A stretch of DNA of 32,000 nt, from NCBI GenBank assembly GCA_029785195.1, contig JAFMAD010000004.1:69329-101328 (forward strand). The letters run 5' to 3'. The notes beneath the pieces were generated by a model. It saw only the letters and a program-made list of their open reading frames with translations, made no database searches and was not told the DNA's origin. Positions 1-15,923 of this stretch are shown here, piece after piece. Positions within the stretch are counted from its first letter, which is position 1. The number at the start of each line of letters is the position of its first letter. The translations under genes and the position numbers were made by a program. The DNA comes from Nitrososphaerota archaeon (lineage in GTDB: Archaea; Thermoproteota; Nitrososphaeria; Nitrososphaerales; Gagatemarchaeaceae).

Positions 1-3000
1 CGAGGGCCTCCTCTCTGTCCTTGTAGAGCTGCGAGAGCATAGGAGCCATCCCTTGCTCCCTATCGGGTCCCAGCCCCTCTCCCACGGCCCAGGACACCAG
101 GGCCCTTGCCCCTGACTCGTCGAGGCCTTCCATGCCATCCCGAAGCAGCAGGGCCAGACGGCCTCTGCCCAATGGGACCACCGAGGGGACCGAGAACGGC
201 CCGTGGTGGTCGCCCAAGGAGTATCGCTGAATCGCCTTGGGGACCTTCCAGACCTCTATCCCATGCATCCAGGAGAGGGCATCTAGGTCGCCCGAATTGA
301 ATGCCACGACCCTGGTGTACACCTCGTTCATTATCGCTTCTATGTCATTGGCCCTCGCTTCGGGTCTTTGCGGGAGGTCGGGATAGGAGACGCCATCCAA
401 GGGCCGCGCCTTCCATCGTGTCGCCAGAGACCTAAGGCTCCCTTGGTGGCGCCCATTCACCGTCGTTATCGCCTGCGGGATTGAAGGGAAGAGCTTGACG
501 AGCGACTGGTTCCCTACGAAAGCCTCCACCGGCATCTTCAGGCTAATCGAGTTCGATTCGCCCACCGGCCACGGCACCGCGTCCATCGCAACGGCCCACC
601 CCTTATCTTCTGCAATCGACAGCAACACCAGGACGGCTTCCGTCTGCTGCGAATCGACTGCCATCCCCTTGACGAGCATGCGCAGGAACCGGCGTGTCGC
701 ATCACCGTCCAGGCGCGAGACCCTGAGGGCTCCAAGCCTCTCCGATGCCGACTGTGCGCCGGTCGTCATCGGGATTACCGCCCAGGCGCCGAGGCTCACG
801 GGTTGGTCGATGACACCTCCGTCGTCCAACAGGACGTCCCCCGGTCTCAGCCAGCTGCCCGCGACGAAGACCACCCTCTTCTCGCCGAAGAGCTCTTTCG
901 CCTCGGGTGGGACCTCCTCCGAGTGGGAGTCTAGCACCTTCCAGATGGCCTCGTAGCTTGCCCTGGACCTCGGCCAGCTCGACCCGTCCGACCTCGCCTT
1001 GTCGGACATCAGGACCAAGGCATCTAGCAGGTCCACCGTCTGCATCCTCGAGGTCGCTCCAAGCGCGTCGAGCAAATCTCTCAACGGAGAGGCTTCGTCG
1101 GGAGATAGCACGAGGAGCCCTATCGAGTCGGGTGGGACCGGGAACGCTTCCGGCTTGGCGACAATCCTGACCTTGGCCCCGTCGTACCATCTTTCACCCC
1201 AGTACATGGCAGGCTTCGCCAGCGCGGACCTCCATCTCTCGCGTTCCTTGAGGGGTAGTTTCCTCAAAGATGCCGACAGGCCAACCAGGAGCGAACCGGG
1301 GGGTTCTCGACCGTTCGCGGCGCACTTGGAGTACACCTCCGTCATCTGTCCTAGGGACGGCGAGATTGCGAGGCCCAGGTACATCGCCTTGGCCCCTCCC
1401 TTGTCGCCTAGCGCTTCGACCTTGGCGCGCACGTCGTCGTCCATCTCATCGAGGTCGACGTATGACGCATTGGTCTGCCCCAGAATCGAGACTTTTTCCG
1501 GCGTGGGAAGCATCGCAAGACCCGGCTGGGCGACGCCGGTGATGCCGACGGGCACCCAATCGACCTCCGCCAGTCCGCCTCGGATGGACTCGAGTTGGTT
1601 GGAGTCGTACTCGACCAGGAGGGTGCCGAAGATGTTCGAGAGCAGGCGTCTGTCCGGAGGACGCTCCCTCGACAGGCCCTTGATTATCTGGACGACCTTG
1701 GCAAGGTCCAGCTGGACCACGGCGCCGAGCGCCTCGAGGGTCGAATTCTTCCATCTCTCCGAATCGAAGTCCGGGCTGAGCTGGTGCAACCCCAAGCTTG
1801 CGAGAATTGGACCTGCACCCCGCGCCATCCTGCCGGCCGGATACCAGTCCCCTTTCGGGTCGTAGAGGCATGGCACCTTGGCCATGTCGTCCGGCTCCAC
1901 TCCCCTCTCCGTCTTCTTCTTGTCGAAGTAGACCTGGATGGCAGCCAGCATGGCCTTCTTCTGGGCCTTGAGGACCTCCTCCTTCTCCACGCCAAGGAAG
2001 TCCCTAAGCATCTTGTGCTCGAAAAGCGATCCTAGCCGGGGCGAGATGAAGCTGCGCACGAAGTTCGTCGGGTCGCCAGGCTTCTCCGCCAAGGCCACTA
2101 TGTCGAGGCGGCTCGCCACCCTACGCTTGTCGGAATCGGAGTAGCCCTTCAAATCGAAGATTCTAATTTTCCGCTGCATCTCCGCTGTCAATCCGGGTAC
2201 GGCGAAGGGCATCACGAAAATCCACTCCCTCCGGTAGTTCTCACCTTCGTGCCCCCGATGATCGCGGACGTCTGGAGGCGGGCCCAACGTCCTGACCCCG
2301 TCCAGCACGAACGGGACGAAGCTCTTGCCTATTGCCTTGTCCAACGCCCACGACTCGTGGGTGACCACCTTGAAGACGAGGCGAGAAATCAACCTGTAAT
2401 CTTCGTCCTTGATGTCCTCGAATCTCTGGGGGTCATCGTGGAACTCGGTGTCTATCCATTGCGGGACCTCGTTGAAGGCCACGTCGTGGCGCCACGAGCC
2501 GTCCCTCTCCAGCTCTGTAATCACTCGTTGGATTTCGGGATGGATTCGACGGGTCGGCGAGAGTATCGAGTCCAACTCCGACAGTTCGGACGGCAGACGT
2601 GGGAATGAACCCATCGTCCGGAAGGTGCCTTCAGCGTCCGGGACCAGGGACAGTCCCCTTAGCGCCTCGCCTCCCTTCGCGGTAAGCGCGTACCTGAGGA
2701 CCGACTCGGTGTTGGGCCTGTCGAGCCGCACAGAGTTCGCGCCTGTCGTCCTTCCGTAGCGCAGCGGGCCCTTCGTCTCGAGCACCTTCCAGGCGTCGAC
2801 GAAGTGTTGTACCCCGAAGCTCACTGCCTCGGCCCTGTCCTTCAGCCAGTGAATCTCGTCGAACTTTGAGGTGAACGCCGCTGGCATAGCCGCCTTTCCG
2901 AGTAGCTCGACCACCCTTCTCTCGACTTCGTTTGAGACGTAGTACGACTGCCGTGGCGGGTGCCACGTCCCATCGCCTGTGACGAGTATGGGTTGGCCGA

Positions 3001-4474
3001 ACAGCCAGTCCCTGAGCTCCTTGCCTTCCTCGACTCCCCATGAGATATCCTCCTTGTCAGGTCGCATCCACTCGCGAATCTCCCCTATGGGGAGGGACTG
3101 GAGCACCAGGGCTTCGGCTTCCGCTGGCATTTGGCCAAGGGACCTGACAGATGCAAGGAAGGCGGGGAACGTGTCCTTGTATAGTCTGGCTATCGAACGC
3201 ATGCATTCTCGGTACCACTCCCCGTTGACCTCGTCGTTCCCTTGGATGTCGACCCCCGTGCGGTTCTCTACAGGGAACAGGTGGGCAGAGAACGCGAACC
3301 TGTTCCGGCCCCTCGAAGGCAGGGGAATGACGCTGTAGAGGTACTGTTTCCTGGCAGGGAAGAGGGGGAATAGGATGTGCACGTGGTTCTTCTTTATCGG
3401 CAAATCGGTGGGCCCCTTCTTCAGGTCTATTCGGATCACGCCTCTGCTGCCCCTCAGCAGGAAGAGCGCCTTCCCTTCATCGTCCTTGACCGACGCCGAG
3501 GCCGCGAAGTACCTCTTCGCATCAGGTGTCTGGTAGTCCCACCCGTTGGAGTCGAAGGAGGGCGGGCAGGTGCCTATCTCCACTGCTTCGTGTGGGTCCC
3601 AGCGGTACCACGTCTTCCCTGAGGCCGCCAATCCCTGCTTGACTTCGACGACCCGCGCCTTCTCGAGAGGCATGTTCAGGCCGAAGTCTCTTTCGGCCTG
3701 GTACGCTTCAGGGCGGTTGTCAGCGTTCCAGACGATTCGAATCGCCTTGAGCCTCTGGCAGCACAAGAGGACGTCGCAGAGGTAGCCCTTCAGGTCGTTG
3801 TAGAACGACCTCACGTCCTCAGGGCCCCATCGAGGGAAGTCCTTGGCCGCGAAGGGCCTTTCCCGCGCACCAATCACCTCCTTCGCGGCCGTCTCGTCTC
3901 GCCAGGGGAGCCTGAAGAGCACACCCTTCGCCTTCTCGTCTTTGCTTCCCGCGTACGGGGAGTGGAGATGTCCCTCCAGGTTGTTCCACTCCATGCTGAG
4001 CGGGTTCAGGGCCCTGGAGACGACGTTCGAGTGCACCTCCGGGTGGTTCGTGATTGCGTACACCGTCTGGAACCCGCTCCCGAAGTGGCCGGTCGATTCC
4101 AAGTCGTATTCCTTGAAGCGCTTGAGGACCCTCGACGACCTGTCGAAGTCGCACCCCTCATATGACCCCTTTGGCCCGATGGTCGTGAAGGCCCTCCCGT
4201 TGTTTGCGATGTAGAGGGCGTCCTTCTCGAACCTGAGTACCAGAATAGTCGCCCCGGCGTCGTCTGCGTTCTGCACCAGTTCCCGGATGACGAACTTGCT
4301 CCTGTCCTCGTCCTCCGTCCGCGTGACAGCTATCCTCGTCTTGATCCAGTCGAGGAAGTTCAGCGAGTAGCCCTTGTCCATGTCGTCCTGGCACATCCAC
4401 CTGCCATCGGGCGCGGTAACTTCGTCAGGGAAGGGTGGCTCTTTCCCGCAAACGACACACACGACCTTTGCCAA
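1..4474 (-). CDS. Giant sacsin-like GHKL (Bergerat-fold) ATPase with an N-terminal Cys-rich zinc-ribbon-like segment. Partial: the C-terminus lies beyond the window start.
   Basis: My own reverse-strand translation from TTG 4474-4472 has no stop down to base 2 (1491 codons). That TTG lies 2 nt after the helicase TAG stop at 4479-4477. The ORF is absent from the supplied track, presumably because it has no stop inside the window. Motifs read: CVVCGKE..(18)..WMCQDD; FVIRELVQNADDAGA (ExxxNxxD N-box); STGHFGSGFQTVYAITNHP (Gly-rich ATP-lid box); YSVIPLPSRGRNRFAFSAHLFPVENRTG...EWYRECMRSIARLY (resembles the sacsin repeat region). The start is uncertain: GTG 4462 or downstream ATGs are alternatives. 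Confidence 0.85.
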   Translation of the reverse strand, partial: MAKVVCVVCGKEPPFPDEVTAPDGRWMCQDDMDKGYSLNFLDWIKTRIAVTRTEDEDRSKFVIRELVQNADDAGATILVLRFEKDALYIANNGRAFTTIGPKGSYEGCDFDRSSRVLKRFKEYDLESTGHFGSGFQTVYAITNHPEVHSNVVSRALNPLSMEWNNLEGHLHSPYAGSKDEKAKGVLFRLPWRDETAAKEVIGARERPFAAKDFPRWGPEDVRSFYNDLKGYLCDVLLCCQRLKAIRIVWNADNRPEAYQAERDFGLNMPLEKARVVEVKQGLAASGKTWYRWDPHEAVEIGTCPPSFDSNGWDYQTPDAKRYFAASASVKDDEGKALFLLRGSRGVIRIDLKKGPTDLPIKKNHVHILFPLFPARKQYLYSVIPLPSRGRNRFAFSAHLFPVENRTGVDIQGNDEVNGEWYRECMRSIARLYKDTFPAFLASVRSLGQMPAEAEALVLQSLPIGEIREWMRPDKEDISWGVEEGKELRDWLFGQPILVTGDGTWHPPRQSYYVSNEVERRVVELLGKAAMPAAFTSKFDEIHWLKDRAEAVSFGVQHFVDAWKVLETKGPLRYGRTTGANSVRLDRPNTESVLRYALTAKGGEALRGLSLVPDAEGTFRTMGSFPRLPSELSELDSILSPTRRIHPEIQRVITELERDGSWRHDVAFNEVPQWIDTEFHDDPQRFEDIKDEDYRLISRLVFKVVTHESWALDKAIGKSFVPFVLDGVRTLGPPPDVRDHRGHEGENYRREWIFVMPFAVPGLTAEMQRKIRIFDLKGYSDSDKRRVASRLDIVALAEKPGDPTNFVRSFISPRLGSLFEHKMLRDFLGVEKEEVLKAQKKAMLAAIQVYFDKKKTERGVEPDDMAKVPCLYDPKGDWYPAGRMARGAGPILASLGLHQLSPDFDSERWKNSTLEALGAVVQLDLAKVVQIIKGLSRERPPDRRLLSNIFGTLLVEYDSNQLESIRGGLAEVDWVPVGITGVAQPGLAMLPTPEKVSILGQTNASYVDLDEMDDDVRAKVEALGDKGGAKAMYLGLAISPSLGQMTEVYSKCAANGREPPGSLLVGLSASLRKLPLKERERWRSALAKPAMYWGERWYDGAKVRIVAKPEAFPVPPDSIGLLVLSPDEASPLRDLLDALGATSRMQTVDLLDALVLMSDKARSDGSSWPRSRASYEAIWKVLDSHSEEVPPEAKELFGEKRVVFVAGSWLRPGDVLLDDGGVIDQPVSLGAWAVIPMTTGAQSASERLGALRVSRLDGDATRRFLRMLVKGMAVDSQQTEAVLVLLSIAEDKGWAVAMDAVPWPVGESNSISLKMPVEAFVGNQSLVKLFPSIPQAITTVNGRHQGSLRSLATRWKARPLDGVSYPDLPQRPEARANDIEAIMNEVYTRVVAFNSGDLDALSWMHGIEVWKVPKAIQRYSLGDHHGPFSVPSVVPLGRGRLALLLRDGMEGLDESGARALVSWAVGEGLGPDREQGMAPMLSQLYKDREEAL

Positions 4475-4476
4475 GT

Positions 4477-7278
4477 CTAGGAGCCTGACCTCTCTGCCGC
4501 GCTCGGGCGGATTGTCGCTATATACTCTAAGGACGCATGCGGTCCCGCCGATTCTTCGGTGTCGTCATGCCCTCCCTTTCTTGTCTTGACCCATCTTTCG
4601 AAGTCGGCCTCCACCTCCGTGCTGACGTGTCGGGGTAGGAGAATCGAAGGCGCGAATCTGAGCGGAGCAGTCTCCAGGGAAGAGACTGTCTCTGCGAGGA
4701 GAGTTCCCGTCAGCTTCTCGGCTCTACCATGGGAGTCGGACCAATACGTGATGTTGGCCTCTGTGCCCAATCGGCCTCTGCAAGAGTACCTACAGATTGT
4801 GACTCCAGAGGTCATCCCGTTCCATTCGAAGCCGAGAGGTTTTCCGCTGTCAGGGGGGTCGTTGAACGAATTCAGCGTCACGACGGAAGCCAGCTTCACG
4901 AGCGGGCTCAACGGCGTCGCGAACAAGCCCTCGCGCGCGGCGTGCTTCGCAAGAGTAATCATCAGTTCCTTGTCCCGGTAGGAAAGGAGCTGTGCCCTGA
5001 CCCGCTCCTCTAGGCCGTGTCCGGTGGCGTCTTTGATGGCTATGACGTCGTCGTCGGCGACGGGCCCGATTACTACGCCCCCTTCGTCTTCGAGGGCGAC
5101 TTTGGCTCTCCCACCAGAGAACACGGAAAGCAGCCGGAGCACTGGCAACCAACTCAACCTTCCGAGGTCGCCCGACCGCTGGGCCCTGAGCGTCCTGGTC
5201 TGCTCGTCGAGTAGGTCCTCCACCCCTGCTAACGGTCCAACTTCGACGAGTTCCTTTTCGGTCGCAGCCCGCCTCTCTTCGACGATTCTGGCTTCTGCTT
5301 CGCCAGTCCCAGTAGCGGCCGACTCGAGTACCGCAGGGGAATCACCGATGGCCCTTGCGAAAATCTCGAGCCTCGTATATAATGTTCCGAGTATGTGTTC
5401 GTCCAAGGAGCCCTCGACGACTAGGTTGTGGATGGAAACCTCCTTCGAAGCCTGTCCTATCCTGTCGATTCTCCCGATGCGCTGCTCCACCCTCTGCGGG
5501 TTGTATGGGAAGTCGTAGTTCGCAAGCGTGTCGGCTGCCTGGATGTCCAACCCTTCGGAAAGGAAGTCGGTCGAAATCAGCACCGCAGGCCCCTCCCAGG
5601 ACTTGAAGGCACTCAGTGTCTCCTCCACCTTGAAGTCGCTGTCGTCGCCAGAAAGCGCGAAGGCCCTCATGCCGTCCAAGTCGCCGAGCCTGCGGGTGAG
5701 GTAGCCCCAAGTGTGCCTCCATTGCGTGAAGACGATTGCCTTGTGGGGCCTCCCATCGGACCGAGGTTCTCTCAGCTGAAGAAGAATCGAGCGCAGCTTC
5801 TCCAGCTTGCTGTCGGTCCTTAGCAGCCCGAACTTGGCGACCAACTCCGAGCATTTCTCCCGGGCCCCGGGCGGGAGGGAGCCTCGGACCACGTGGAAGC
5901 CCTCGGCGTCGTCCCTCTCCTTGACAGAGAGGGGGCTCTCGATTTCATCCCCATGCTGCCAGACGTCGAAGCCCTCCATGCCCCCGTTGAGTAGCTCGAC
6001 CGTCGCGGGCAGGCAGGAGGAGAGCTGCATCCTGTGCACGTGGCTGAAGTGTGATTGCAGCAACGAGTCGACCTCGTGGTACAGGCTCGACTCCGACACT
6101 CTATTCTTCCCTCGATTGCCTGTCCTCGAGCGGGGACGTCTGTTTAGGGCCACCGAGTGGTTGGTCACGACCCGGGTCCGGGACTCCCCTACGTCGCTCC
6201 TGCGAGCCCTCGTCATGATGGCTTCGAATGGGTTCAGAAGGGCCAGTCGTTGGGCGAGGCCGGCCCTCAGGTTATGGGACGATTCGGTACCATAGCTTTC
6301 GAGCAGGGATCCGACTTCGCCGTCGTTGGCACCTTCCGCGAGGGAAATCAGCCTCTCGGTCACGCTAATCCCTAGTGGCCGGCCAGCCAGTACGTCCCGT
6401 ATGGTAGTGTTGACGAGGGCTGCCGAGGATGCGTCCCGGTCGAACTCGGCCTTCTTCACCTCCCTCCCGAAGATGACCTCGAGCACGCGGCGGAGATCGT
6501 CCATCTCGAGATGGACTGGGGTCGCGGAGAGACCCACGGCCGCCTTGGCGATGGCCGATATCTGGAACGCCATCGTCCTCCTCTGAGTGTCCCCGCCCCG
6601 GCCAATCAGGTTGTGGACCTCGTCGATTACCACCAGGTCGATGGACGGCGGCGTGCGTGCCTCGGCTGCGGTGCCTTCCCAATTCGAGTCGTAGGAGACG
6701 ATTGCCCTGAACCCGCCCTTCGTGAACAGCAGTTCCTTGAGCCGTCTGCCGCTCGTTATCTCGAAGTACAGCCCGAACCTGCGCCACAGCTCGTCTCGCC
6801 ACTTCAGTCTCAGGCCGCCAGGGCATAGGACTAGGACCCTGGCCGAAGGCTCCGACGTGAGTTCCTCCACCAGTATGTACGCGGATTCGATGGTCTTGCC
6901 CAGGCCTACTTCGTCTGCGACCAGGATTCTACGCGAAGGCGACCGCAGGTACTTCAGCAGAGGGCGGAACTGGTAGGCGTTGAAATCCACCTTAGCGTCG
7001 AACGCCGCCCACGTCCCGACGGCCTTCGACGACATCCTCGCTACGATTCGCATTAGCCCGTCCCTCGGTGAGGAGATTCCCTCGAGCGCGCAGATTTCGA
7101 GCCCGGACTGCTGCAGGGGTTGTGCCAAGGACGGAGGCAAAGGCTTGACTCTTCTCAGGTGGAAAGTGTCTGCGCGCTCGGCGACGCTATATCCTGTCCC
7201 CGTGACGACGTAGATTGGCCCTTCCTTCCCTTTCGGACACACTAGTCTTCCAATCTTGGAGTCTTCGGGCCCAATCAT
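4477..7278 (-). CDS. SNF2-family (SF2) DNA-dependent ATPase/helicase, 933 aa, with an uncharacterised C-terminal extension of about 280 aa
   Basis: Track ORF. Motif I LVADEVGLGKTIES; motif II DLVVIDEVHNL (DExH); motif III GLSATPV; motifs V/VI LISTDFLSEGLDIQAADTLANYDFPYNPQRVEQRIGRIDRIGQ. I saw no recognisable nuclease or methyltransferase motif in either terminal extension. Confidence 0.93.
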   Translation of the reverse strand: MIGPEDSKIGRLVCPKGKEGPIYVVTGTGYSVAERADTFHLRRVKPLPPSLAQPLQQSGLEICALEGISSPRDGLMRIVARMSSKAVGTWAAFDAKVDFNAYQFRPLLKYLRSPSRRILVADEVGLGKTIESAYILVEELTSEPSARVLVLCPGGLRLKWRDELWRRFGLYFEITSGRRLKELLFTKGGFRAIVSYDSNWEGTAAEARTPPSIDLVVIDEVHNLIGRGGDTQRRTMAFQISAIAKAAVGLSATPVHLEMDDLRRVLEVIFGREVKKAEFDRDASSAALVNTTIRDVLAGRPLGISVTERLISLAEGANDGEVGSLLESYGTESSHNLRAGLAQRLALLNPFEAIMTRARRSDVGESRTRVVTNHSVALNRRPRSRTGNRGKNRVSESSLYHEVDSLLQSHFSHVHRMQLSSCLPATVELLNGGMEGFDVWQHGDEIESPLSVKERDDAEGFHVVRGSLPPGAREKCSELVAKFGLLRTDSKLEKLRSILLQLREPRSDGRPHKAIVFTQWRHTWGYLTRRLGDLDGMRAFALSGDDSDFKVEETLSAFKSWEGPAVLISTDFLSEGLDIQAADTLANYDFPYNPQRVEQRIGRIDRIGQASKEVSIHNLVVEGSLDEHILGTLYTRLEIFARAIGDSPAVLESAATGTGEAEARIVEERRAATEKELVEVGPLAGVEDLLDEQTRTLRAQRSGDLGRLSWLPVLRLLSVFSGGRAKVALEDEGGVVIGPVADDDVIAIKDATGHGLEERVRAQLLSYRDKELMITLAKHAAREGLFATPLSPLVKLASVVTLNSFNDPPDSGKPLGFEWNGMTSGVTICRYSCRGRLGTEANITYWSDSHGRAEKLTGTLLAETVSSLETAPLRFAPSILLPRHVSTEVEADFERWVKTRKGGHDDTEESAGPHASLEYIATIRPSAAERSGS

Positions 7279-7298
7279 CTATCGTGTTGCCGCGCGTC

Positions 7299-7323
7299 GA
7301 ACGGCGCCGTTCTCGATATAAGA
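7299..7323. promoter_or_regulatory. Perfect 14-bp palindrome GAACGGCGCCGTTC (7299-7312) abutting a TATA-like ATATAA (7316-7321), in the divergent intergenic region
   Basis: Read directly. The palindrome equals its own reverse complement. The TATA-like element is about 40 nt upstream of the helicase ATG (7278, minus strand) and about 49 nt upstream of the GTG at 7367 (plus strand). This is consistent with a shared bidirectional archaeal promoter plus operator. Confidence 0.4.
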
Positions 7324-7366
7324 TTGGCAGTGTTCCCGTCGGATTTGTCTGGACAATCCCGAAGGT

Positions 7367-8260
7367 GTGCTGTGTCATGACAGCTCCGTTCGACAAAATC
7401 GCATCAATCTGACGGACGCGTGTTTCACGTTCTTATGTCGCGACCGAAATCCAAAGAGCGTGGCGACATGGCTGGCTGTCGGCCATCCTGACGACTGGCG
7501 GACGGCCAGAGAAAGAGGGATTTGGGGCCTCGCCGAAAGGCACGTCCGACTCTGGCAGGAGACCGCTCCGGGCGACGAAATCGTCTTCTACGCGACATGG
7601 CCCGTGCGAGGGATAATAGGTCACGGGCGGATTGAGTCCAAGTTCAGGTCCGGCGAGACGGTCTGGCCTCGGGAGCTGGCCGAGAACAGGGTGATATGGC
7701 CCTACAGGCTCAGACTCAGAATAGAGTACCTACTTCCGGAGGAGCTGTGGGGGTTCCGGCGCGTTGAATCCGAGCCGGCCAAGAGGAGGGCGCAGGGAGG
7801 GTTCCAACGTCTCGAAGAGAAACTCGCCAGCCGTGTAATCGCCGAGCTGGTTGAGCGAGAAACAAGCCCAGAGTTGACTCCCGTGCTCCAGGGCTTCTTC
7901 CGAAGCGTGCAGAGCGTGCTGGAAGCATCCAGTGGAGCTATCAGATGGCCCGAAGATGAGTTCAGAACTCTCCTTAAAGGCATGACAGAGGTGCTAATGG
8001 ATAATGCGTTCATGATAACCGAGAGAGGCGACCGTTATGGAAGGAGTCATCAAGTGACGCTGCTGGTCATGAAGGAGGTCGAGGTATTCACCTCAGCGGT
8101 CGAAAGGGACTCGAATCAACCGATGAATCCCGAGCTCGTCCGCTCAAGGGCCGGGCAGGCGAAGACCATCAAGGACACGTTAGAGGCGCACCTGAAAATC
8201 CCCTCCTTCCTGAAGGGCGTCTTCGAAATCGTCAATGAACTCCTCAACATGGTCAAATGA
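7367..8260 (+). CDS. EVE/PUA-like (ASCH/EVE superfamily) N-terminal domain protein with an unknown, probably helical C-terminal half of about 160 aa
   Basis: Track ORF. WLAVGHPDDWRTARERGIWGLAERHVRLWQETAPGDEIVFYATWPVRGIIGHGRIESKF...VIWPYRLRLRIEYL follows the pattern of archaeal EVE-domain proteins (W..n.W....g.WG...GD.i.FY....i.G.g.i...yP.R..i). The true start may be the in-frame GTG at 7460 (MATWLAVG...). Confidence 0.65.
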   Translation: MLCHDSSVRQNRINLTDACFTFLCRDRNPKSVATWLAVGHPDDWRTARERGIWGLAERHVRLWQETAPGDEIVFYATWPVRGIIGHGRIESKFRSGETVWPRELAENRVIWPYRLRLRIEYLLPEELWGFRRVESEPAKRRAQGGFQRLEEKLASRVIAELVERETSPELTPVLQGFFRSVQSVLEASSGAIRWPEDEFRTLLKGMTEVLMDNAFMITERGDRYGRSHQVTLLVMKEVEVFTSAVERDSNQPMNPELVRSRAGQAKTIKDTLEAHLKIPSFLKGVFEIVNELLNMVK

Positions 8261-8326
8261 TGGGGACGGTTAGACACTCAGGTCTCTCGAGTCTCCAAGC
8301 CTTAATATTCGAGATTCGAATCACGA

Positions 8327-9652
8327 GTGATGGACTCTGAGCACGAGTGGCTAACGGGTCTCAGGTACGAGGACTTGTGGGCATACATCAAAACACAGAA
8401 GGGGAACAATGAAGCCCAAAGGAGTTACAACGCGGGGATAGGGGCGCTACTAAATGAAATCAACAAAGTCCCGCAATTCAGGGGCAAAATCTCCCCAGAC
8501 GACGTAGATTACGCCTTCAAGGAGGCGCTCGAAAAAATCAAGGAACCTCTGAGTAGGACGGGCAAGAGAAAGCTGGAAGCCATCCTGCGAAAGTGGATGG
8601 GAGTGGAGCGTGACTACGACTTCCACTTTGACTTGGGCTGGCTGATTGGCTTCCCTGTGGGCTTCCAGTTCGGCTATGGAGAGTTGAGGCCCTTCTCCAG
8701 GTTGCCAAGGATGAACAGGCCTTACGTCGAACGGGGCTTTGAGATGGCAGCGGCGAGGCTGAAAACGCCAGCCAGGATTGATTTCGCTCCTAGTGAGGTC
8801 GAACGATGGTTCCTCTGTATAAGACAGCGGACGATTGGATGGCATAACGCGGCAGAGAGAGCAGATTTTCTCGCTACCCGGAGCCTCGCAGCGTACGAGC
8901 TCGTGACTGGAGTCGCAGAAATCGAATCCTGGTCTTTGGCAACTCCTCCTCGCCACGACCTTGTCGTTGTTTGTCACGACAGGAAGCGGACGGGAGGCCG
9001 CTATCACGCTCGCCCACCCCTCCAACTCGTCATTAATTTCCCCGGTTCAGGTTTCGATGAACTGATGAACAAGATGACTAGGCTGATGAGGAATGAGAAC
9101 CGCACCGAAATTGAGAACAGGATAATGGCTGTAGTCGAAATCTTCGCTATGCTCCAGGGAGGGGTGCAACTGGAGGCAAAGTACCTGCTGAAAGTAATCT
9201 CGCTTGAGGCCCTTTTCCTATCTGAGGACGACCGTGACTATCTCGGGTACAGACTGGCCGAAAAGATTGCGTTCCTGCTTGGTGACGACAAGCTCTGGAT
9301 GGCCATAACCTACGAAAGGCTACCACACTTGGGGTTCAGCGGGAATCTGAGAGAACTGGGAGACCAATATATCGACGACAAATTCGCGGAGACCAAGAAG
9401 TCAGACGCGCGGCGCCGTTTGAACAGAGAGGTCGTTAGGCTTTATCGCAAGAGATCGGCATTCGCTCACCAGCAACGAAGGAACTTGGAGAGCCTCATAA
9501 CCCCGTACGATTACGATATGGTCTCATGGTTGCTGAGACTTTCAGTGGTCAAGATGCTTTCCCTTACAGAAAGAGGAGTAACCCACCTCAGGAAGCGGAG
9601 CGACGACGACCCTTCGAGCTTCGACCAACTCGTTGAGAAGCTGAAGTACTGA
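8327..9652 (+). CDS. Hypothetical 441-aa protein with a C-terminal HEPN-like Rx4H motif (Apea/Abi-like arrangement, tentative)
   Basis: Track ORF. The C-terminal region reads VISLEALFLSEDD ... VVRLYRKRSAFAHQQRRN. RSAFAH is an R-x4-H motif, preceded upstream by a conserved-looking acidic helix, as in HEPN RNases. I did not recognise the N-terminal 300 aa. Confidence 0.7.
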   Translation: MMDSEHEWLTGLRYEDLWAYIKTQKGNNEAQRSYNAGIGALLNEINKVPQFRGKISPDDVDYAFKEALEKIKEPLSRTGKRKLEAILRKWMGVERDYDFHFDLGWLIGFPVGFQFGYGELRPFSRLPRMNRPYVERGFEMAAARLKTPARIDFAPSEVERWFLCIRQRTIGWHNAAERADFLATRSLAAYELVTGVAEIESWSLATPPRHDLVVVCHDRKRTGGRYHARPPLQLVINFPGSGFDELMNKMTRLMRNENRTEIENRIMAVVEIFAMLQGGVQLEAKYLLKVISLEALFLSEDDRDYLGYRLAEKIAFLLGDDKLWMAITYERLPHLGFSGNLRELGDQYIDDKFAETKKSDARRRLNREVVRLYRKRSAFAHQQRRNLESLITPYDYDMVSWLLRLSVVKMLSLTERGVTHLRKRSDDDPSSFDQLVEKLKY

Positions 9653-9755
9653 GGAGGATTGCTTCATCGTCAAATCATCGGCGAAGCATGTTCGAAGCGC
9701 GCGGTAGTCAAGCGGTTGAAGGCGGAATGTCTTTTATCATCCAACAGATTCGGCC

Positions 9756-10862
9756 TTGCCTGCTACTTTGTCTGAAACCGATGAGGATTCTGGTTTTCTG
9801 GAGCCGCTTGAGGACGAATTGGAAGACATGCGCAGAGCAGTACGAATCGAGAGCAAGCTGTACTCCTATCCGGCGGACTTCCCCCTGCAAGTCCTCCATG
9901 AGAAGATAGACAGCGGAGAGATAGACTTCCCTCCGTTCCAAAGGAAGTACGTCTGGACAAAGGAGAAGGCGTCCATGCTGATTGACTCTTTCATGCGACG
10001 CCTTCCTGTGCCTCCCGTGTACTTGTTCACCACGTCCAAGGGTACTCTGCTTGTGGTAGACGGCCAACAGAGATTACGAACCATCAAGCGGTTCTTCGAG
10101 GACAGGTGGGAAGACGGTGAGGAATTCGAACTCGTCTTAGCAGACGACAACCCTCTGAACAACAAGCGATTCCAAGACCTCGACGAAGCAGATCAGAAGA
10201 AGCTCAAGAATGCTGTGATGAGATCCATGGTGATAGAGCCCAAGTCCGGCAGATATGACAATGCGATGTACGACATCTTCGAGAGGTTGAACACGGGTGG
10301 GATGCTCCTGATGCCTCAGGAAATCAGGAACTGCGTGTACCACGGAGCCTTGAATGACTCGATTATCAGACTAAACAGACTGGCTGATTGGAGGACTATA
10401 GTCGGCACCGCAGAGGAGGACAAGCGCCTCAGAGACGTCGAGCTCATTCTGAGAGGGGTGGCCCTGTCGAATCTGGGGAAGGACATCGGCCCCGAACCTC
10501 CTTTGAGGTATAAACCATCCATGAAACAATTCCTCAACGACTTCATGAAGACTATGCAGGATCCGAGCAAGGAATGGGTTGGTGACATGGAATCGACTTT
10601 TACGACGACTGCTCGGCTTATTGTCAAGACTTTGGGTGAAACGCCGTTTCATGTCACACGAGCGATGAGGGCGCCCACATACGACGCTGTGTTCGTCGCC
10701 TTCGCCAAGCACCCCGAATCAATCCCCCCGGATATCAAGGAAAGGTACGAACTGCTTAAGGCAGATGCCGATTTCAAGAAGTATACCGAAGAGCGTCCAA
10801 CCGGTGCGAAGAGTGTCAATGGACGGCTCGACCTAGCGGAGAAAGTGCTTTTTGGGGGATAG
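9756..10862 (+). CDS. DUF262 (ParB/Srx-like, GmrSD N-terminal type) protein without a DUF1524/HNH nuclease domain
   Basis: Track ORF. IDFPPFQRKYVWTKEKASMLIDSFMRRLPVPPVYLF...LLVVDGQQRLRTIKRFF carries the FQRxxVW and DGQQR signature motifs. The C-terminal 170 aa has no H..N..H-type nuclease motif. The TTG start at 9756 is uncertain. Confidence 0.88.
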   Translation: MPATLSETDEDSGFLEPLEDELEDMRRAVRIESKLYSYPADFPLQVLHEKIDSGEIDFPPFQRKYVWTKEKASMLIDSFMRRLPVPPVYLFTTSKGTLLVVDGQQRLRTIKRFFEDRWEDGEEFELVLADDNPLNNKRFQDLDEADQKKLKNAVMRSMVIEPKSGRYDNAMYDIFERLNTGGMLLMPQEIRNCVYHGALNDSIIRLNRLADWRTIVGTAEEDKRLRDVELILRGVALSNLGKDIGPEPPLRYKPSMKQFLNDFMKTMQDPSKEWVGDMESTFTTTARLIVKTLGETPFHVTRAMRAPTYDAVFVAFAKHPESIPPDIKERYELLKADADFKKYTEERPTGAKSVNGRLDLAEKVLFGG

Positions 10863-10864
10863 CG

Positions 10865-11356
10865 ATGCCCTTCAGCGACGTGACGGACCGGCTCAACGAA
10901 GACAGCTTGGTCCTCGACATGCTCCGGAGAAGCAGGATCGACCTACGAACTATCTCGAAACTCGAGAACATGATGGTAAGAGACCTGCTTATCGTCATGT
11001 ACACGACCTACCAAGAACACGTGGTCGAGGTGGTGCTGAAGAAGGTGAAACGCCACAGCGATAATCACGAAGCCATTGTGAACTTCGTCCGGCGCAAGAT
11101 TGAGGAAACCAACATCGACACCTTCGCTTTGAAGAAGCTGCTGAAGCAACTACTTCCGAGTTATGCGTCAAACTTCGAGTTCGCATTGAAAGACAGAGAG
11201 ACCACTTCCGCTTACATGAACATAATCACAGGGAGAATAGATGTAGCTCATCACCAGGGGAACAACCTCCAGATTGGTTCCCTCGTCGAAATCGCAGAAG
11301 CTCACGTCCATGCTCAACGATTGCTACAATCATTCGAGAGTTGCATGTATGCATGA
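10865..11356 (+). CDS. Small (163 aa) HEPN-like protein with an Rx4H motif, of the kind associated with DUF262 (MAE_28990/MAE_18760-like, tentative)
   Basis: Track ORF. Its ATG lies 2 nt after the DUF262 stop, so the pair is tightly coupled. NIITGRIDVAHHQGN contains R-IDVA-H (Rx4H) in the C-terminal third of an all-helical-looking protein. Confidence 0.65.
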   Translation: MPFSDVTDRLNEDSLVLDMLRRSRIDLRTISKLENMMVRDLLIVMYTTYQEHVVEVVLKKVKRHSDNHEAIVNFVRRKIEETNIDTFALKKLLKQLLPSYASNFEFALKDRETTSAYMNIITGRIDVAHHQGNNLQIGSLVEIAEAHVHAQRLLQSFESCMYA

Positions 11357-11441
11357 TTCGCATGCTGGATTCTGTGTTCCATCTCAATCGTCGGGTTCGG
11401 GTACGTACCATTAAGTAAGTAGCCTGCCGCCAGTTTGAGAA

Positions 11442-12143
11442 TTGGAATTTCAAAGGATAGATGACATCCAGGCAAGCACCGTGAAGGTATCCAGCGATGC
11501 GGGGGAAGGAAGCGGTGTGCTTCTCGGAAAAAGTGGGCATGTAGCTACTTGTGCCCATGTCGTAGGAGAGAACAAGAAGGGTGAAATCCTATGGTTCGGC
11601 GCCCCCGACCTCAACACAGCTTACCAAGTCGAAGCAATCGACGAGGAATGGGATGTCGCTGTCCTCAGAACGGACCCCAACCTGTTCGAGCAACTGAATG
11701 GGACCGTCAAGGTCAATCCGCTAACTTTCGTCACAACCAGGGGTGAAATCAAAGCAGGAATGGTAATCGGTATCTGTGGCTATCCGTGGGTGACAGGATT
11801 GCGCGAGAAGCCGGACATATCTAGGCATCCTCCTTCGATTACACTTGGAATCGTATCCCTTTGGCGAGGCGAACTCAGCGAGACAATCATGCTCGGCGCG
11901 AATCTTCACCAGGGAAATAGCGGCGGTCCGGTGTTTAACGAATTCGGTCTGGTTCTGGGGCTTGCTTCGCAGAGCACGGTGTACAAGAAGGAGGAGATTG
12001 GAAGCGTGCTTTCGATGGGTTTGCCGCTGGGCTACGGCGAAATGGTCCCGATGCAATTGGTAAACATCCTGATAGTGAGGGAGAGGCTCAAGGTCGAGTG
12101 GACCCCAACGAGTCGGATAGGTAGTCATTTCAGCAAATCGTAG
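11442..12143 (+). CDS. Trypsin-like (chymotrypsin-fold, Trypsin_2/DegP-protease-domain type) serine protease with no signal peptide and no PDZ domain
   Basis: Track ORF. Triad contexts: GSGVLLGKSGHVATCAHVV (His), WDVAVLRT (Asp), HQGNSGGPVFNEFGLVLGL (Ser). The N-terminus MEFQRIDDIQASTVKV is not hydrophobic. Confidence 0.85.
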   Translation: MEFQRIDDIQASTVKVSSDAGEGSGVLLGKSGHVATCAHVVGENKKGEILWFGAPDLNTAYQVEAIDEEWDVAVLRTDPNLFEQLNGTVKVNPLTFVTTRGEIKAGMVIGICGYPWVTGLREKPDISRHPPSITLGIVSLWRGELSETIMLGANLHQGNSGGPVFNEFGLVLGLASQSTVYKKEEIGSVLSMGLPLGYGEMVPMQLVNILIVRERLKVEWTPTSRIGSHFSKS

Positions 12144-12166
12144 TGCTAGATTACCTTCATCGCAGG

Positions 12167-12586
12167 TTACCCTTGCACCAAGGGCCTCCCAAATATCTTG
12201 CTTTGGTGCCACATGAGGAACCTCTTCGCAGGTGCCCCTTTCCCTAGCTTCCTGAAACTCAGAGTGACCAATCTAACCTGTCTCAGGGTCGCCGGGGTGA
12301 AGGCCTTTCGGCAATAACTCACCCGGTAAGACGGGTACTCTAAGGTGATGAATCCCTCCCCGAAAAGGTTGTCATGAAGGGAACACATGAGGATGACATT
12401 CTCGTCCTGTCCTCGCTCCTTCTCACCTTTTGCCCAGCCCTTGATATGGCCGGCTATCAGGAGCGGTGGGGAATCTATTTTGCAGAGTGCACATTGGGTG
12501 CCATAACGAACAAGGGCACGTCTCCTAATTTCTCTCCTAGGACTGTTTTCGGTCCGAGTCCCGTCGGAATCGAGTCTGACTCGTTC
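12167..12586 (-). pseudogene. HNH endonuclease (HNH_2-like, of the kind found in type IV restriction proteins), 5'-truncated remnant
   Basis: My translation of the stop-to-stop frame reads ...RRRALVRYGTQCALCKIDSPPLLIAGHIKGWAKGEKERGQDENVILMCSLHDNLFGEGFITLE... This gives CxxC, then the HI and N motifs, then LHDNLF. There is no ATG, GTG or TTG between the upstream in-frame TAG (12589-12587) and the CxxC. The first canonical start (12388, the track's 73-aa ORF) falls after the first catalytic His. Confidence 0.5.
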
Positions 12587-12720
12587 CTAACCTGACAGCG
12601 GACTAGCGTTCAACCCCGACTTGCGTCTGCGGCAATCAAAGCTTGGTTGTCGATTCGAATCGCAAAGTTCTCCGGAATCGTCATTAGTTGTGCGATTGTT
12701 CGGCTTTTGCCTTATGCGAA

Positions 12721-12756
12721 TCGGATTTGAACCCACCTAGGTAGTGATAAATCCGA
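12721..12756. repeat. 36-bp imperfect palindrome: 8-bp outer arms TCGGATTT/AAATCCGA around a central ACCTAGGT
   Basis: Read directly. Arms at 12721-12728 and 12749-12756 share a centre with the CCTAGG core (12736-12741). 13 of 18 half-site positions are symmetric. It lies in a gene-poor stretch of about 470 bp (12596-13067) between the island and the core genes. Confidence 0.5.
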
Positions 12757-13565: not shown

Positions 13566-13679
13566 CTATGCCGCCAAGACACGGGCGGACATGCGGGGTC
13601 CGACGCCAGTTAGCCCCGCGGATTCCTCTATCGCGTTTTTCGACAGGGACCCGGGGCGCTGCTCTCGGCTACGTGTAGC

Positions 13680-13994: not shown

Positions 13995-13997
13995 CTT

Positions 13998-14309: not shown

Positions 14310-14313
14310 GAGA

Positions 14314-15891: not shown

Positions 15892-15923
15892 TCGGGCTCG
15901 CCCTGCCTCTCGTTCACGCGACC

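What the first reader, a model, noticed from the sequence alone, without database searches (positions are those of the whole stretch)
1..4474. A 1491-codon ORF that is missing from the ORF track: a giant sacsin-like GHKL ATPase
For the first 4.4 kb the supplied track lists only short, overlapping, low-complexity ORFs of 288 aa or less. Translating the reverse strand myself from TTG 4474 gives an unbroken frame all the way to base 2. An open frame of this length cannot arise by chance.

The product has:
- a Cys-rich N-terminus, CVVCGKE...WMCQDD;
- a Bergerat-fold ATP site, RELVQNADDAGA followed by GHFGSGFQTVYAITNHP;
- a downstream block, IPLPSRGRNRFAFSAHLFPVENRTG...EWYRECM..ARLY, that parallels the sacsin repeat region (ELLQNADDA / GxFGxGFNSVY / LPLP..G.P.H.NG.F....R).

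The remaining 1100-plus residues are unassigned and the C-terminus, where an effector domain could sit, is outside the window.
Basis: seen in the sequence. Interest (0 to 1): 0.8.

Follow-up and report, generated by a model that had tools for sequence, protein, structure and literature searches.

The report
Tiamat-like giant ATPase in DISARM-like operon
The open frame is a real archaeal gene for a 1659-residue sacsin-type ATPase related to the bacterial anti-phage protein TmtA (Tiamat), and it sits inside a conserved four-gene helicase, nuclease and methylase operon that I did not find described in the searched literature.

Summary
Window 2..4474 (minus strand) is 1491 codons with no stop. It was missing from the ORF track only because it runs off the window edge. 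The same DNA on a longer public contig (L084) completes it at 1659 aa.

The sacsin/GHKL reading is supported by Pfam SACS and NCBIfam above their cutoffs, and by a pLDDT 88 model whose best fold hits are human sacsin SR1 crystal structures.

More precisely, the protein is homologous to TmtA of the Tiamat defence system over about 1035 aligned columns (hhalign E 4.5e-53). TmtA's C-terminal PD-(D/E)xK-type region is absent. In its place is an HNH_2-like zinc module with no conserved catalytic His.

It is the second gene of a tightly packed operon: SNF2 helicase, this giant, a 1938-aa YprA/MZB/PLD helicase-nuclease, then a 606-aa C5 methylase. This order recurs in every close archaeal homologue locus examined.

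Proposed role (inferred): an ATP-driven clamp or sensor that works with the helicases, with DNA cleavage left to the partner's PLD domain.

Verdict: new variant of a known kind; moderately interesting.

The parts
2..4474 (-). First 1491 of 1659 codons of the giant sacsin-type / TmtA-like GHKL ATPase. Start is TTG 4474; alternative starts are GTG 4462 and NCBI's ATG 4381.
   Evidence: Open frame. 100% match to P0001. Completed on L084 5014..9993. The family alignment is conserved end to end.
4382..4459 (-). N-terminal zinc-ribbon-like motif, residues 6-31: C6-x2-C9 ... W26-x-C28-x2-D31. The fourth ligand is Cys or His in relatives and Asp here.
   Evidence: N-termini of 76 homologues. C6 is invariant; C9, W26 and C28 are at least 90% conserved. 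P0002 (66% identical) starts MAKVVCVVC, in register with TTG 4474.
3575..4357 (-). GHKL (Bergerat-fold) ATPase domain of sacsin SR1 type, about residues 40-300. Motif I is R64-E65-x2-Q68-N69-x-D71-D72. The G-box is G129-x-F131-G132-x-G134-F135.
   Evidence: Pfam SACS and NCBIfam P_loop_sacsin above cutoff. PADLOC TmtA 83.6 bits. Foldseek top hits 5V44-5V47 at E about 5e-8. Invariant columns.
3230..3523 (-). Beta-rich domain after the ATPase, about residues 318-415. It carries the invariant block IPLP(384)...F-S-A-H-x-F-P401-x-E-x-R405.
   Evidence: Model secondary structure. Invariant P384, P401 and R405. Aligned with the TmtA block LPTE...INADFFPxxDRK. Full-length Hsp90 aligns over about 580-600 columns at low TM. 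The role of R405 as an ATP-site arginine is inferred.
713..3229 (-). Mixed alpha/beta body, about residues 416-1254, homologous to the body of TmtA.
   Evidence: hhalign of family against TmtA: probability 100%, E 4.5e-53, 1035 columns. A local TmtA HMM hits P0001 at 875-1223. The exhaustive search with the body profile finds genuine TmtA proteins.
2..712 (-). Start of the family-specific C-terminal region, with no counterpart in TmtA. It continues off the window. The HNH_2-like zinc module lies about 80-230 nt beyond the left edge (L084 about 9565-9717).
   Evidence: The hhalign match ends near family position 1276. C-terminal model at pLDDT 93.4. TagI SRA-HNH is the only credible fold hit. 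HNH_2 is matched by 10 of 25 members.
4477..7278 (-). Upstream operon partner: SNF2-family helicase, 933 aa, DrmD/DpdE/BrxH-like. Its TAG stop is 2 nt before the giant's TTG.
   Evidence: Pfam Helicase_C, ResIII and SNF2-rel_dom. PADLOC DrmD 223 bits. NCBIfam DrmD 246 bits, far below its cutoff of 610. Junction sequence. The same gene sits upstream in L001, L002, L004 and L005.
7279..7366 (.). Divergent intergenic region, likely the operon promoter. A TATA-like TTATAT at 7316-7321 lies about 40 nt upstream of the SNF2 ATG (7278).
   Evidence: Read by eye from the sequence. No archaeal promoter tool was available, so this is an inference.

Best explanation
The frame encodes a 1659-aa archaeal relative of TmtA, the protein of the Tiamat anti-phage system.

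Architecture, in order:
- an N-terminal zinc ribbon;
- a sacsin-type GHKL ATPase;
- a beta-rich domain carrying a conserved arginine;
- a body of about 850 aa shared with TmtA;
- a family-specific C-terminus ending in an HNH_2-derived zinc module with no conserved catalytic histidine.

Operon. It is the second gene of a translationally packed four-gene operon: SNF2 helicase (DrmD/DpdE-like), this giant, a 1938-aa YprA-type helicase with MZB/DUF1998 and (in homologues) PLD nuclease domains (a DrmA-B-C or DpdJ-K-like fusion), and a 606-aa C5 cytosine methylase.

Proposed mechanism (inferred):
1. The methylase marks host DNA.
2. The giant uses ATP-driven closure of its GHKL domain, as in MutL, MORC and Hsp90, together with its zinc modules to engage DNA or its partners. 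It acts as sensor, clamp or licensing factor for the SNF2 and YprA motors.
3. DNA cleavage is done by the PLD domain of the YprA partner, because the giant's own nuclease-type module looks inactivated.

Shown here: gene reality, fold, homology to TmtA, operon structure and its conservation. Inferred: defence function, ATPase activity, clamp or sensor role, and loss of nuclease activity.
For: Fold and family.

Homology to TmtA:
- PADLOC TmtA matches the N-terminus.
- The exhaustive body-profile search over 1.84 billion proteins pulls in proteins of 1430-1570 aa. These score 1133-1292 bits end to end on PADLOC TmtA.
- hhalign gives E 4.5e-53 over 1035 columns.

Operon in the window's own genome: L084 is the same DNA. 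It shows SNF2 2210-5011, the giant to 9993, YprA 10001-15817 and the methylase 15810-17630. Domains were checked.

Conservation:
- The SNF2, giant, YprA order recurs with abutting or overlapping genes in L001, L002, L004 and L005, at 32-54% identity of the giant.
- 33 of 49 family clusters on contigs of at least 15 kb share an exact contig length with a YprA-giant hit.
- A sister subfamily of about 2060 aa sits next to clear DrmD, DrmA (735 bits), DrmB and DrmC genes.

Nuclease placement: in the bacterial loci, the nuclease region is found either on the GHKL protein (strong TmtA, mostly no SNF2 neighbour) or on the neighbouring helicase. The sacsin-type proteins next to a long SNF2 match lack it.

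Degenerate HNH: C-x2-C ... N ... C-P-x-H is invariant, but Lys/Arg-Ser sits at the end of beta-1 where the general-base His should be.
Against: - No experiment supports a defence function for this family or operon.
- The HNH_2 link is weak: best Pfam E 0.003, the window's own copy gives no hit, Foldseek E 0.32, and the PDB profile search found nothing.
- Inactivity of the module rests on motif reasoning. Invariant E, S, N, H and R residues could form a non-canonical active site.
- GHKL motif II is non-canonical (A-N-N-G-R-A-F here, N-D-G in most relatives), and ATP binding is untested.
- The window genome's own YprA protein (P0080) shows only weak MZB and no PLD hit at E 0.05 or better. PLD is seen in its homologues.
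- The SNF2 gene falls far below NCBIfam's DrmD cutoff, and the YprA gene matches DpdJ better than DrmA. The system is therefore DISARM-like or Dpd-like, not DISARM proper.
Confidence: 0.6

Rival explanations
1. The giant is a stand-alone, Tiamat-like single-protein defence. It lies beside a separate DISARM-like system only because defence genes cluster in islands.
For: TmtA is classified as a single-gene system (PADLOC; bioRxiv 10.1101/2024.10.26.620412). The window is clearly a defence island, with a GmrSD_N/NsnA-like gene, a HEPN-like gene and a protease next door. Most strong bacterial TmtA loci have no SNF2 neighbour.
Against: The fixed gene order, with 2-nt gaps or overlaps, is retained down to about 32% identity in five independent archaeal loci. 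Contig-level co-occurrence is 33 of 49. Unlike TmtA, the protein lacks the PD-(D/E)xK region.
Confidence: 0.12
2. The giant is itself the nuclease effector. Its C-terminal HNH_2-like module is an active, non-canonical nuclease gated by the GHKL ATPase, in parallel with TmtA's ATPase plus PD-(D/E)xK arrangement.
For: It has the same overall layout as TmtA, with a nuclease-type fold at the C-terminus. The fold hit is the HNH domain of TagI restriction endonuclease, at probability 0.97. Several residues around the module are invariant: T-P, E, N, C-P-x-H and R.
Against: There is no conserved His at the general-base position. The only conserved His (C-P-x-H) is best read as the fourth zinc ligand, which leaves no catalytic metal ligand in the helix (motif reasoning). 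The operon already encodes a PLD-type nuclease domain in the YprA partner's homologues.
Confidence: 0.2
3. The giant is an Hsp90/sacsin-like protein chaperone that folds or assembles the very large helicases of the operon, with no direct action on nucleic acid.
For: The best structural matches are sacsin SR1 and Hsp90, both chaperones. Its partners are unusually large proteins (933 and 1938 aa).
Against: It is homologous to a defence protein (TmtA) that carries a nuclease domain. It has two zinc modules of nucleic-acid-binding type, a zinc ribbon and an HNH-like module. GHKL ATPases in restriction-modification operons have precedent as DNA-acting factors (PMC2292703).
Confidence: 0.07

Closest known systems
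TmtA, the single protein of the Tiamat anti-phage system (PADLOC models PDLC03964-03972; Millman et al. 2022, recalled from my own knowledge and cited in PMC13321033)
   Same: Giant size (1300-1780 aa against 1659 aa). Sacsin-type GHKL ATPase at the N-terminus. The beta-rich domain has the same conserved LP...FFPxxxR(K) block. About 850 aa of the body is shared. hhalign gives probability 100%, E 4.5e-53 over 1035 columns. A nuclease-type fold sits at the C-terminus.
   Different: PADLOC's TmtA models align only to residues 64-198 of this protein. TmtA has no N-terminal zinc ribbon. TmtA's C-terminus is a PD-(D/E)xK-type region (consensus PGYDIES...RYIEVK, which also matches HmaA's nuclease region); this family has an HNH_2-like zinc module without the catalytic His instead. 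TmtA is described as acting alone, whereas this protein is locked into a four-gene operon.
DISARM (DrmA/B/C plus DrmD or DrmE plus methylase) and the restriction half of Dpd (DpdE, DpdJ, DpdK): YprA-helicase defence systems
   Same: The operon supplies an SNF2 helicase (best PADLOC hits DrmD and DpdE), a YprA-type helicase with MZB/DUF1998 and PLD (DrmA+B+C or DpdJ+K fused), and a C5 methylase (DrmMII/DruM-like). A sister subfamily of the giant sits in a locus with clear DrmD, DrmA, DrmB and DrmC.
   Different: No described DISARM, Dpd, Druantia, ARMADA, BRIGADE or TALON component is a GHKL ATPase. The YprA census has no mention of sacsin, GHKL, HSP90 or MORC. The SNF2 gene scores 246 against NCBIfam DrmD's cutoff of 610. 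No 7-deazaguanine (dpdA-C) genes were seen among the called genes in L084.
Eukaryotic sacsin, SR1 sub-repeat of the SRR supradomain (PDB 5V44-5V47)
   Same: Best sequence and structure match in the PDB for the ATPase domain. They share motif I (ELxQNADDA), the GxFGxGF box and an N-N at the motif-II position.
   Different: Sacsin has three such repeats plus UBL, DnaJ and HEPN domains and acts as a chaperone (PMC3710099). This protein has one repeat, zinc modules and a defence-operon context. Identity is only 16-18% in the structural alignment.
MORC/paraMORC GHKL ATPases of restriction-modification operons (Iyer, Abhiman and Aravind 2008, PMC2292703)
   Same: The same logic of gene association: a GHKL ATPase with a SWI2/SNF2 or other SF2 helicase, HNH or RE-fold nucleases, cytosine methylases and Vsr. 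Vsr genes flank L002 and L003.
   Different: That paper does not mention sacsin-type ATPases or YprA/DUF1998 partners. The best fold and sequence matches here are sacsin and Hsp90, with MORC3 only at rank 31. The MORC-specific motif was not tested.
Hma (HmaA SNF2 helicase-nuclease, HmaB methylase, HmaC ATPase)
   Same: A helicase, methylase and ATPase triad. The window's SNF2 hits HmaA at 131 bits. Some bacterial sacsin-type genes sit beside a helicase ORF that also matches the TmtA nuclease region, which is an HmaA-like layout.
   Different: HmaC is a DUF499 AAA+ ATPase, not a GHKL (PMC11232893). No HmaC model matched the giant.

Membership tests
GHKL (Bergerat-fold) ATPases | Motif I (N-box): E-x3-N-x2-D with catalytic Glu and Mg-binding Asn | tested here: met
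   R64-E65-L-V-Q68-N69-A-D71-D72. E, N and both D are invariant in 62 sequences.
GHKL (Bergerat-fold) ATPases | Motif II (G1-box): D-x-G-x-G with the adenine-contacting Asp | tested here: inconclusive
   The family has A-N-[D/N]-G-R-A-F, and the window protein has N-N-G. Vertebrate sacsin SR1 also shows N-N at this place (YVYNNAIF, alignment). This is a sacsin-type variant, and ATP binding is untested.
GHKL (Bergerat-fold) ATPases | Motif III (G2-box): G-x-x-G-x-G | tested here: met
   G129-H-F131-G132-S-G134-F135 is invariant.
GHKL (Bergerat-fold) ATPases | Bergerat fold of the N-terminal domain | tested here: met
   The pLDDT 88 model hits sacsin SR1, Hsp90/Grp94 N-domains, GyrB, MORC3 and Topo II ATPase domains at probability 1.00.
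Sacsin-type ATPase domain (Pfam PF25794 SACS; NCBIfam NF047352) | Score above the curated family cutoffs | tested here: met
   SACS 46.3 against 32.8, covering profile positions 17-122 of 247. NF047352 52.8 against 50. The sister protein P0068 covers positions 18-234 of 247.
Eukaryotic sacsin (orthologue) | Three SRR repeats with UBL, DnaJ and HEPN domains | tested here: not met
   There is one ATPase domain only. Pfam finds no DnaJ, HEPN or UBL in the protein.
Tiamat TmtA | Homology over the ATPase and body | tested here: met
   hhalign probability 100%, E 4.5e-53, 1035 columns. A local TmtA HMM gives 128.6 bits in three segments.
Tiamat TmtA | Full-length match to PADLOC TmtA models | tested here: not met
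   The best model (PDLC03969) aligns residues 64-198 to profile positions 34-166 of 1563 only. Genuine TmtA proteins align 3-1507 to 7-1502.
Tiamat TmtA | C-terminal PD-(D/E)xK-type nuclease region | tested here: not met
   No match beyond TmtA HMM position about 1190 in any family member. The family C-terminus is HNH_2-like instead.
Tiamat TmtA | Single-gene system that protects against phage | not testable with these tools
   The gene is embedded in a conserved four-gene operon.
DISARM | DrmA helicase, DrmB (DUF1998/MZB) and DrmC (PLD) core | tested here: inconclusive
   All three functions are fused in one 1938-1972-aa protein. DEAD scores 46-52 bits. MZB scores 15-21 bits, below its cutoff. 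PLDc_2 scores 29.6 bits, above its cutoff, in L002 only. The best PADLOC hit is DpdJ, not DrmA. The sister-subfamily locus L003 does have DrmA at 735 bits and DrmB at 210 bits.
DISARM | DrmD equivalog (NCBIfam NF038317) | tested here: not met
   246 bits against a cutoff of 610.
DISARM | Associated DNA methylase | tested here: met
   A 606-aa C5 methylase overlaps the YprA gene's end in L084 (DNA_methylase 169 bits). Equivalent genes occur in L001, L002 and L004.
Dpd | 7-deazaguanine insertion genes dpdA, dpdB and dpdC | tested here: not met
   None among the called genes within 10 kb on either side in L084, nor among the window ORFs scanned.
HNH_2 endonucleases (PF13391) | Family HMM match and beta-beta-alpha-Me fold | tested here: inconclusive
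HNH_2 endonucleases (PF13391) | Conserved general-base His at the end of beta-1 | tested here: not met
   The family has [K/R]-S at the end of the predicted beta-1, and the preceding column is variable. The alignment to the HNH consensus is my own motif reading.
Hma | HmaC-type (DUF499 AAA+) ATPase | tested here: not met
   No HmaC model matched. HmaC is a DUF499 AAA+ protein (PMC11232893).

The most novel reading that the evidence does not exclude
The four-gene cassette (SNF2 helicase, TmtA-like GHKL giant, YprA-MZB-PLD giant, long C5 methylase) is a distinct archaeal defence-system class that has not been described: a Tiamat/DISARM hybrid. In it, a sacsin-type ATP clamp senses or licenses attack on unmethylated DNA by the helicase-nuclease. 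On this reading, sacsin-type GHKL proteins, SF2 helicases and a nuclease form a modular triad whose parts are fused in different ways: TmtA alone, an HmaA-like helicase-nuclease plus GHKL, an SNF2 plus a short GHKL, and this operon. That would give the first mechanistic handle on Tiamat.
Probability: 0.45. Interest if true: 0.75.

Novelty: new variant of a known kind. Interest (0 to 1): 0.6.

Why it matters
- I know of no published mechanism for Tiamat, and the searched papers only list it. Finding its protein family wired into YprA/SNF2/methylase operons, with the nuclease module swapped or moved to a partner, predicts what TmtA-type ATPases work with and how they might be gated.
- It adds a GHKL component to the DISARM/Dpd/Druantia/ARMADA family of systems. 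A recent census says this family still holds many uncharacterised classes.
- It extends the sparse catalogue of archaeal defence systems. All named or placed members are archaeal: Nitrososphaerota/Thaumarchaeota, Bathyarchaeota, Thermoplasmata and Methanonatronarchaeum.
- The family gives well-predicted models of a prokaryotic sacsin-type ATPase. These may help in thinking about the origin and chemistry of the sacsin, Hsp90 and MORC-like ATPases of eukaryotes.
- It also corrects a public annotation: NCBI's start codon removes a conserved zinc ribbon.

Tried and rejected
**Systems considered and rejected**
- Hma (helicase-methylase-ATPase): HmaC is a DUF499 AAA+ protein, not a GHKL.
- ARMADA, BRIGADE, TALON and Druantia: none has a GHKL component, and the defining paper never mentions sacsin, GHKL, HSP90 or MORC.
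- Strict DISARM: the DrmD cutoff is not met, and the YprA gene matches DpdJ better than DrmA.
- Dpd: no dpdA-C genes seen.

**Analyses that led nowhere**
- Tandem-repeat structure of the body. The secondary-structure pattern suggested about eight similar modules. All-against-all hhalign gave only weak in-register signals (R1-R4 68%, R1-R7 60%). Every comparison involving module R6 was an obvious artefact (score 140 at 9% identity), so this stays tentative.
- A PDB sequence-profile search with the C-terminal module found nothing meaningful.

**Lookups and libraries that were unavailable**
- Exact-sequence contig lookups for P0001 and P0053 were not on record. The window's flank was recovered through its YprA neighbour P0080 instead.
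- The species-representative genome scan did not contain the window's own MAG.
- tRNA and Rfam scans of the window were empty.
- The original Tiamat paper is not in the searchable library.
Full report
**1. The observation**

At about 60% GC roughly 3% of random codons are stops, so chance would give such a frame with probability near 1e-21 (my arithmetic). The mechanical ORF list omits it only because it leaves out ORFs that run off the source.

**2. Source, full length and start codon**

- A 100% identical protein is public: P0001, 1628 aa, 'hypothetical protein JRN59_03835', Nitrososphaerota archaeon MAG.
- The exact-sequence contig lookup for P0001 found nothing. I recovered the flank another way. 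A homologue search with the downstream neighbour seen in related loci returned P0080, on a contig of the same length as P0001's (104,867 bp). The P0080 locus, L084, is identical to the window (window 1..9487 = L084 9487..1, 100%).
- The gene is therefore 1659 aa from TTG 4474, with 168 aa beyond the window edge.
- Nearly all of the 76 homologues carry C-x2-C ... W-x-[C/H]-x2-C before the ATPase. P0002 (66% identical) begins MAKVVCVVC, in register with TTG 4474.
- NCBI's start therefore cuts off a conserved zinc-ribbon motif. In the window protein the fourth ligand is Asp (CQDD against CQEC).

**3. Anatomy**

*ATPase domain*
- Pfam SACS scores 46.3 bits (cutoff 32.8) and NCBIfam P_loop_sacsin 52.8 (cutoff 50).
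- A family profile hits only sacsin SR1 among PDB sequences.
- An AlphaFold2 model of residues 1-1200, built on 62 family sequences, has mean pLDDT 88.
- Its best Foldseek matches are the human and lizard sacsin SR1 crystal structures (E about 5e-8; TM 0.5-0.56 on the target). Hsp90/Grp94, GyrB, MORC3 and Topo II follow.
- Motif I (E65, N69, D71, D72) and the GxFGxGF box are invariant.
- Motif II is the sacsin-type variant N-[D/N]-G.

*Beta-rich domain and body*
- A beta-rich domain follows the ATPase.
- By analogy with the catalytic Arg/Lys supplied by the second domain of Hsp90, MutL and GyrB (PMC2292703), R405 may complete the ATP site. This is an inference.
- Residues from about 416 onward form a mixed alpha/beta body with recurring beta-hairpin plus helix units.
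- My test for true tandem repeats gave only weak signals plus one clear artefact, so I leave that open.

*C-terminal region*
- The C-terminal 511 aa model well (pLDDT 93.4).
- They contain an invariant pattern: Y-x2-C-Q-I-C-G-x2-T-P ... E-x3-S ... N-S-L-Y-L-C-P-R-H-x2-L-x2-R-G-L-V.
- The only credible fold hit is the HNH-bearing restriction enzyme TagI (6GHS): probability 0.97, 73 columns, 25% identity, but E 0.32.
- Scanned one by one, 10 of 25 family C-termini weakly match Pfam HNH_2 (best E 0.003). No other family recurs, and the window's own copy is below detection.
- The predicted beta-1 strand ends in [K/R]-S rather than the general-base His. The single conserved His (C-P-x-H) most simply completes a CCCH zinc site.
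- I therefore read the module as HNH-derived but probably not a canonical nuclease. This is motif reasoning, at moderate confidence.

**4. Closest known relative: TmtA (Tiamat)**

- PADLOC matched TmtA, but only at residues 64-198.
- I searched 1.84 billion representative proteins with a profile of the non-ATPase body (residue 551 to the end). Only 134 proteins matched at E 0.001 or better, about 30 of them full-length family members, so the family is rare.
- Weak hits to profile positions about 365-720 were proteins of 1430-1570 aa. These turned out to be genuine TmtA, scoring 1133-1292 bits end to end on PADLOC's model.
- A profile-profile comparison of the archaeal family with those TmtA proteins gives probability 100%, E 4.5e-53 and 1035 aligned columns: family positions 39-1276 against TmtA 12-1099 of 1486.
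- The two differ at both ends:
  - TmtA lacks the zinc ribbon.
  - TmtA's C-terminus has a PD-(D/E)xK-type consensus (PGYDIES...RYIEVK). That region also matches the nuclease region of HmaA (PMC11232893). Tiamat is listed among PD-(D/E)xK single-gene systems.
  - No member of the archaeal family or of its 2060-aa sister subfamily matches that region.

**5. Genomic context**

In the window's own genome (L084) the order is as follows:

| Gene | Size | L084 coordinates | Note |
|---|---|---|---|
| SNF2 helicase | 933 aa | 2210-5011 | window 4477-7278 |
| Giant | 1659 aa | 5014-9993 | 2-nt gap after the SNF2 stop |
| YprA-type giant (P0080) | 1938 aa | 10001-15817 | DEAD, marginal Helicase_C, weak MZB |
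| C5 methylase | 606 aa | 15810-17630 | overlaps the YprA gene's end |

- Homologues of the YprA giant also show PLDc_2 (29.6 bits in L002), and their best PADLOC hits are DpdJ and DpdK.
- The same SNF2, giant, YprA order recurs with abutting or overlapping genes in L001, L002, L004 (Thaumarchaeota) and L005 (Bathyarchaeota, where the genes are split by frameshifts). Identity of the giant there is 32-54%.
- A long C5 methylase lies nearby in L001, L002 and L004.
- Using exact contig length as a fingerprint, 34 of 62 family clusters share a contig with a YprA-giant hit, and 33 of 49 on contigs of at least 15 kb. This is a lower bound.
- A sister subfamily of about 2060 aa shares the ATPase and mid-body but not the C-terminus. 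It sits directly upstream of clear DrmD, DrmA (735 bits), DrmB (210 bits) and a PLD gene.

**6. Wider comparison**

In 185,579 species-representative genomes only two loci, both archaeal, hold a full-length relative. The other 78 loci returned share only the ATPase core. I scored their ORFs with local HMMs and tblastn:
- Strong TmtA proteins that include the nuclease region mostly lack an SNF2 neighbour.
- Eight loci pair an upstream SNF2 helicase (28-30% identical to the window's over about 600 aa) with a shorter sacsin-type protein of about 1040-1130 aa. That protein matches only TmtA positions about 30-850, so it has no nuclease.
- Seven loci pair a sacsin-type protein with an upstream helicase ORF of about 1200 aa that itself matches TmtA's nuclease region, an HmaA-like layout.
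- The nuclease region therefore sits either on the GHKL protein or on the neighbouring helicase. This fits the idea that the window protein has handed cleavage to its partner.

**7. Mechanism**

- *Shown:* a real, conserved gene; the sacsin-type GHKL fold; homology to TmtA; membership of a conserved operon with two SF2 motors and a C5 methylase, plus a PLD nuclease domain detected in homologues of the YprA partner.
- *Inferred:* the methylase marks self DNA. The giant binds and hydrolyses ATP. N-terminal closure, as in MutL, MORC and Hsp90, lets it clamp DNA or gate its partners. The zinc ribbon and the HNH-derived module provide contacts with nucleic acid or with partner proteins. The PLD domain of the YprA protein cuts.

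I put 0.6 on this overall. That is about 0.9 on identity and operon membership and about 0.4 on the specific sensor or clamp role with outsourced cleavage. The rivals are a stand-alone Tiamat-like protein (0.12), an active non-canonical HNH effector (0.2) and a chaperone for the giant helicases (0.07).

**8. Novelty**

- The general theme is old. GHKL ATPases with SNF2 helicases, HNH nucleases, cytosine methylases and Vsr in restriction-modification operons were described for MORC and paraMORC families in 2008 (PMC2292703).
- Tiamat is known, including sporadically in archaea (PMC13321033).
- In the searchable library, no paper links a sacsin/TmtA-type ATPase to DISARM, Dpd or YprA systems. 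[quoted passage not shown]
- I therefore rate it a new variant of a known kind.

**9. Caveats**

- The library lacks most subscription papers, including the original Tiamat report.
- The HNH assignment is weak.
- No function has been tested.

Noticed in passing
window 4379-4474: NCBI's annotation of this gene (P0001, JRN59_03835) starts at the internal ATG 4381. That removes 31 residues which form a zinc-ribbon motif conserved across the family. A gene call on the same DNA in ENA uses GTG 4462.
   Followed up: yes
window 7367-12143 (+ strand): Divergent from the operon lies a second defence-type cluster: an EVE-like protein (weak, 20.8 bits), an unassigned 441-aa protein, a GmrSD_N/DUF262 protein that matches PADLOC NsnA (200 bits) and PD-T4-2_A, a weak HEPN-like 163-aa protein, and a trypsin-like protease. 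GC drops to 0.51-0.54 across 8000-13000 against about 0.60 on either side, which suggests separate acquisition.
   Followed up: partly
L084 18168-21705 (8.7-12.2 kb beyond the window's left edge); also L003 449-3813: Just past the operon are a second C5 methylase (372 aa), a Schlafen-group-3 helicase (439 aa, 274 bits) and a MazG-like protein (136 aa). The same trio (MazG-like, SLFN-g3/nSTAND3 helicase, C5 methylase) also flanks the unrelated DISARM-linked locus L003. It may be another conserved module.
   Followed up: no
L013, L017, L027, L034, L041, L065, L067, L079 (about 5-13 kb in each locus): Bacterial two-gene modules: an SNF2 helicase directly upstream of a sacsin-type GHKL protein of about 1040-1130 aa. 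That protein matches only the first 850 or so positions of TmtA and lacks any nuclease region. L067 has two such GHKL genes in tandem.
   Followed up: partly
L046, L051, L053, L062, L072, L077, L080 (about 6-14 kb in each locus): Another bacterial arrangement: a helicase ORF of about 1200 aa that also matches the C-terminal nuclease region of TmtA (an HmaA-like layout). It abuts a sacsin-type GHKL protein of 1390-1460 aa with low TmtA scores (58-88 bits).
   Followed up: partly
L005 6925-15057: In the Bathyarchaeota MAG both the SNF2 gene (314 + 408 aa) and the giant (763 + 903 aa) are split into two ORFs. The cause could be frameshift decay or long-read assembly errors; I did not resolve which.
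   Followed up: no
proteins P0191, P0201, P0203, P0205, P0206, P0208, P0210 and others: The C-terminal HNH_2-like module (profile positions about 955-1107) also turns up in small proteins of about 140-290 aa in metagenomes. These could be stand-alone versions or merely fragments of truncated gene calls. One of them (P0208) weakly hits Pfam HNH_2.
   Followed up: partly
window 3575-4357 (residues 91-93) and 4382-4384 (residue 31): The window's copy departs from the family consensus at two functional-looking positions. It has N-N-G instead of N-D-G at GHKL motif II, and Asp instead of Cys or His as the fourth zinc-ribbon ligand. Several close relatives share the N-N-G form.
   Followed up: partly
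L084 15810-17630 (beyond the window): The operon's C5 methylase is 606 aa, but the methylase domain ends near residue 338. The conserved C-terminal extension of about 270 aa (also present in L001, L002 and L004) has no assigned domain.
   Followed up: no
window 14668-18861 and 24623-26988: Ordinary metabolic genes flank the island. They include a 2-oxoacid:ferredoxin oxidoreductase pair with a pyridine-nucleotide-disulphide oxidoreductase, a ComA-like phosphosulfolactate synthase and an MmgE/PrpD protein. No tRNA or Rfam RNA gene is present anywhere in the 32 kb.
   Followed up: no
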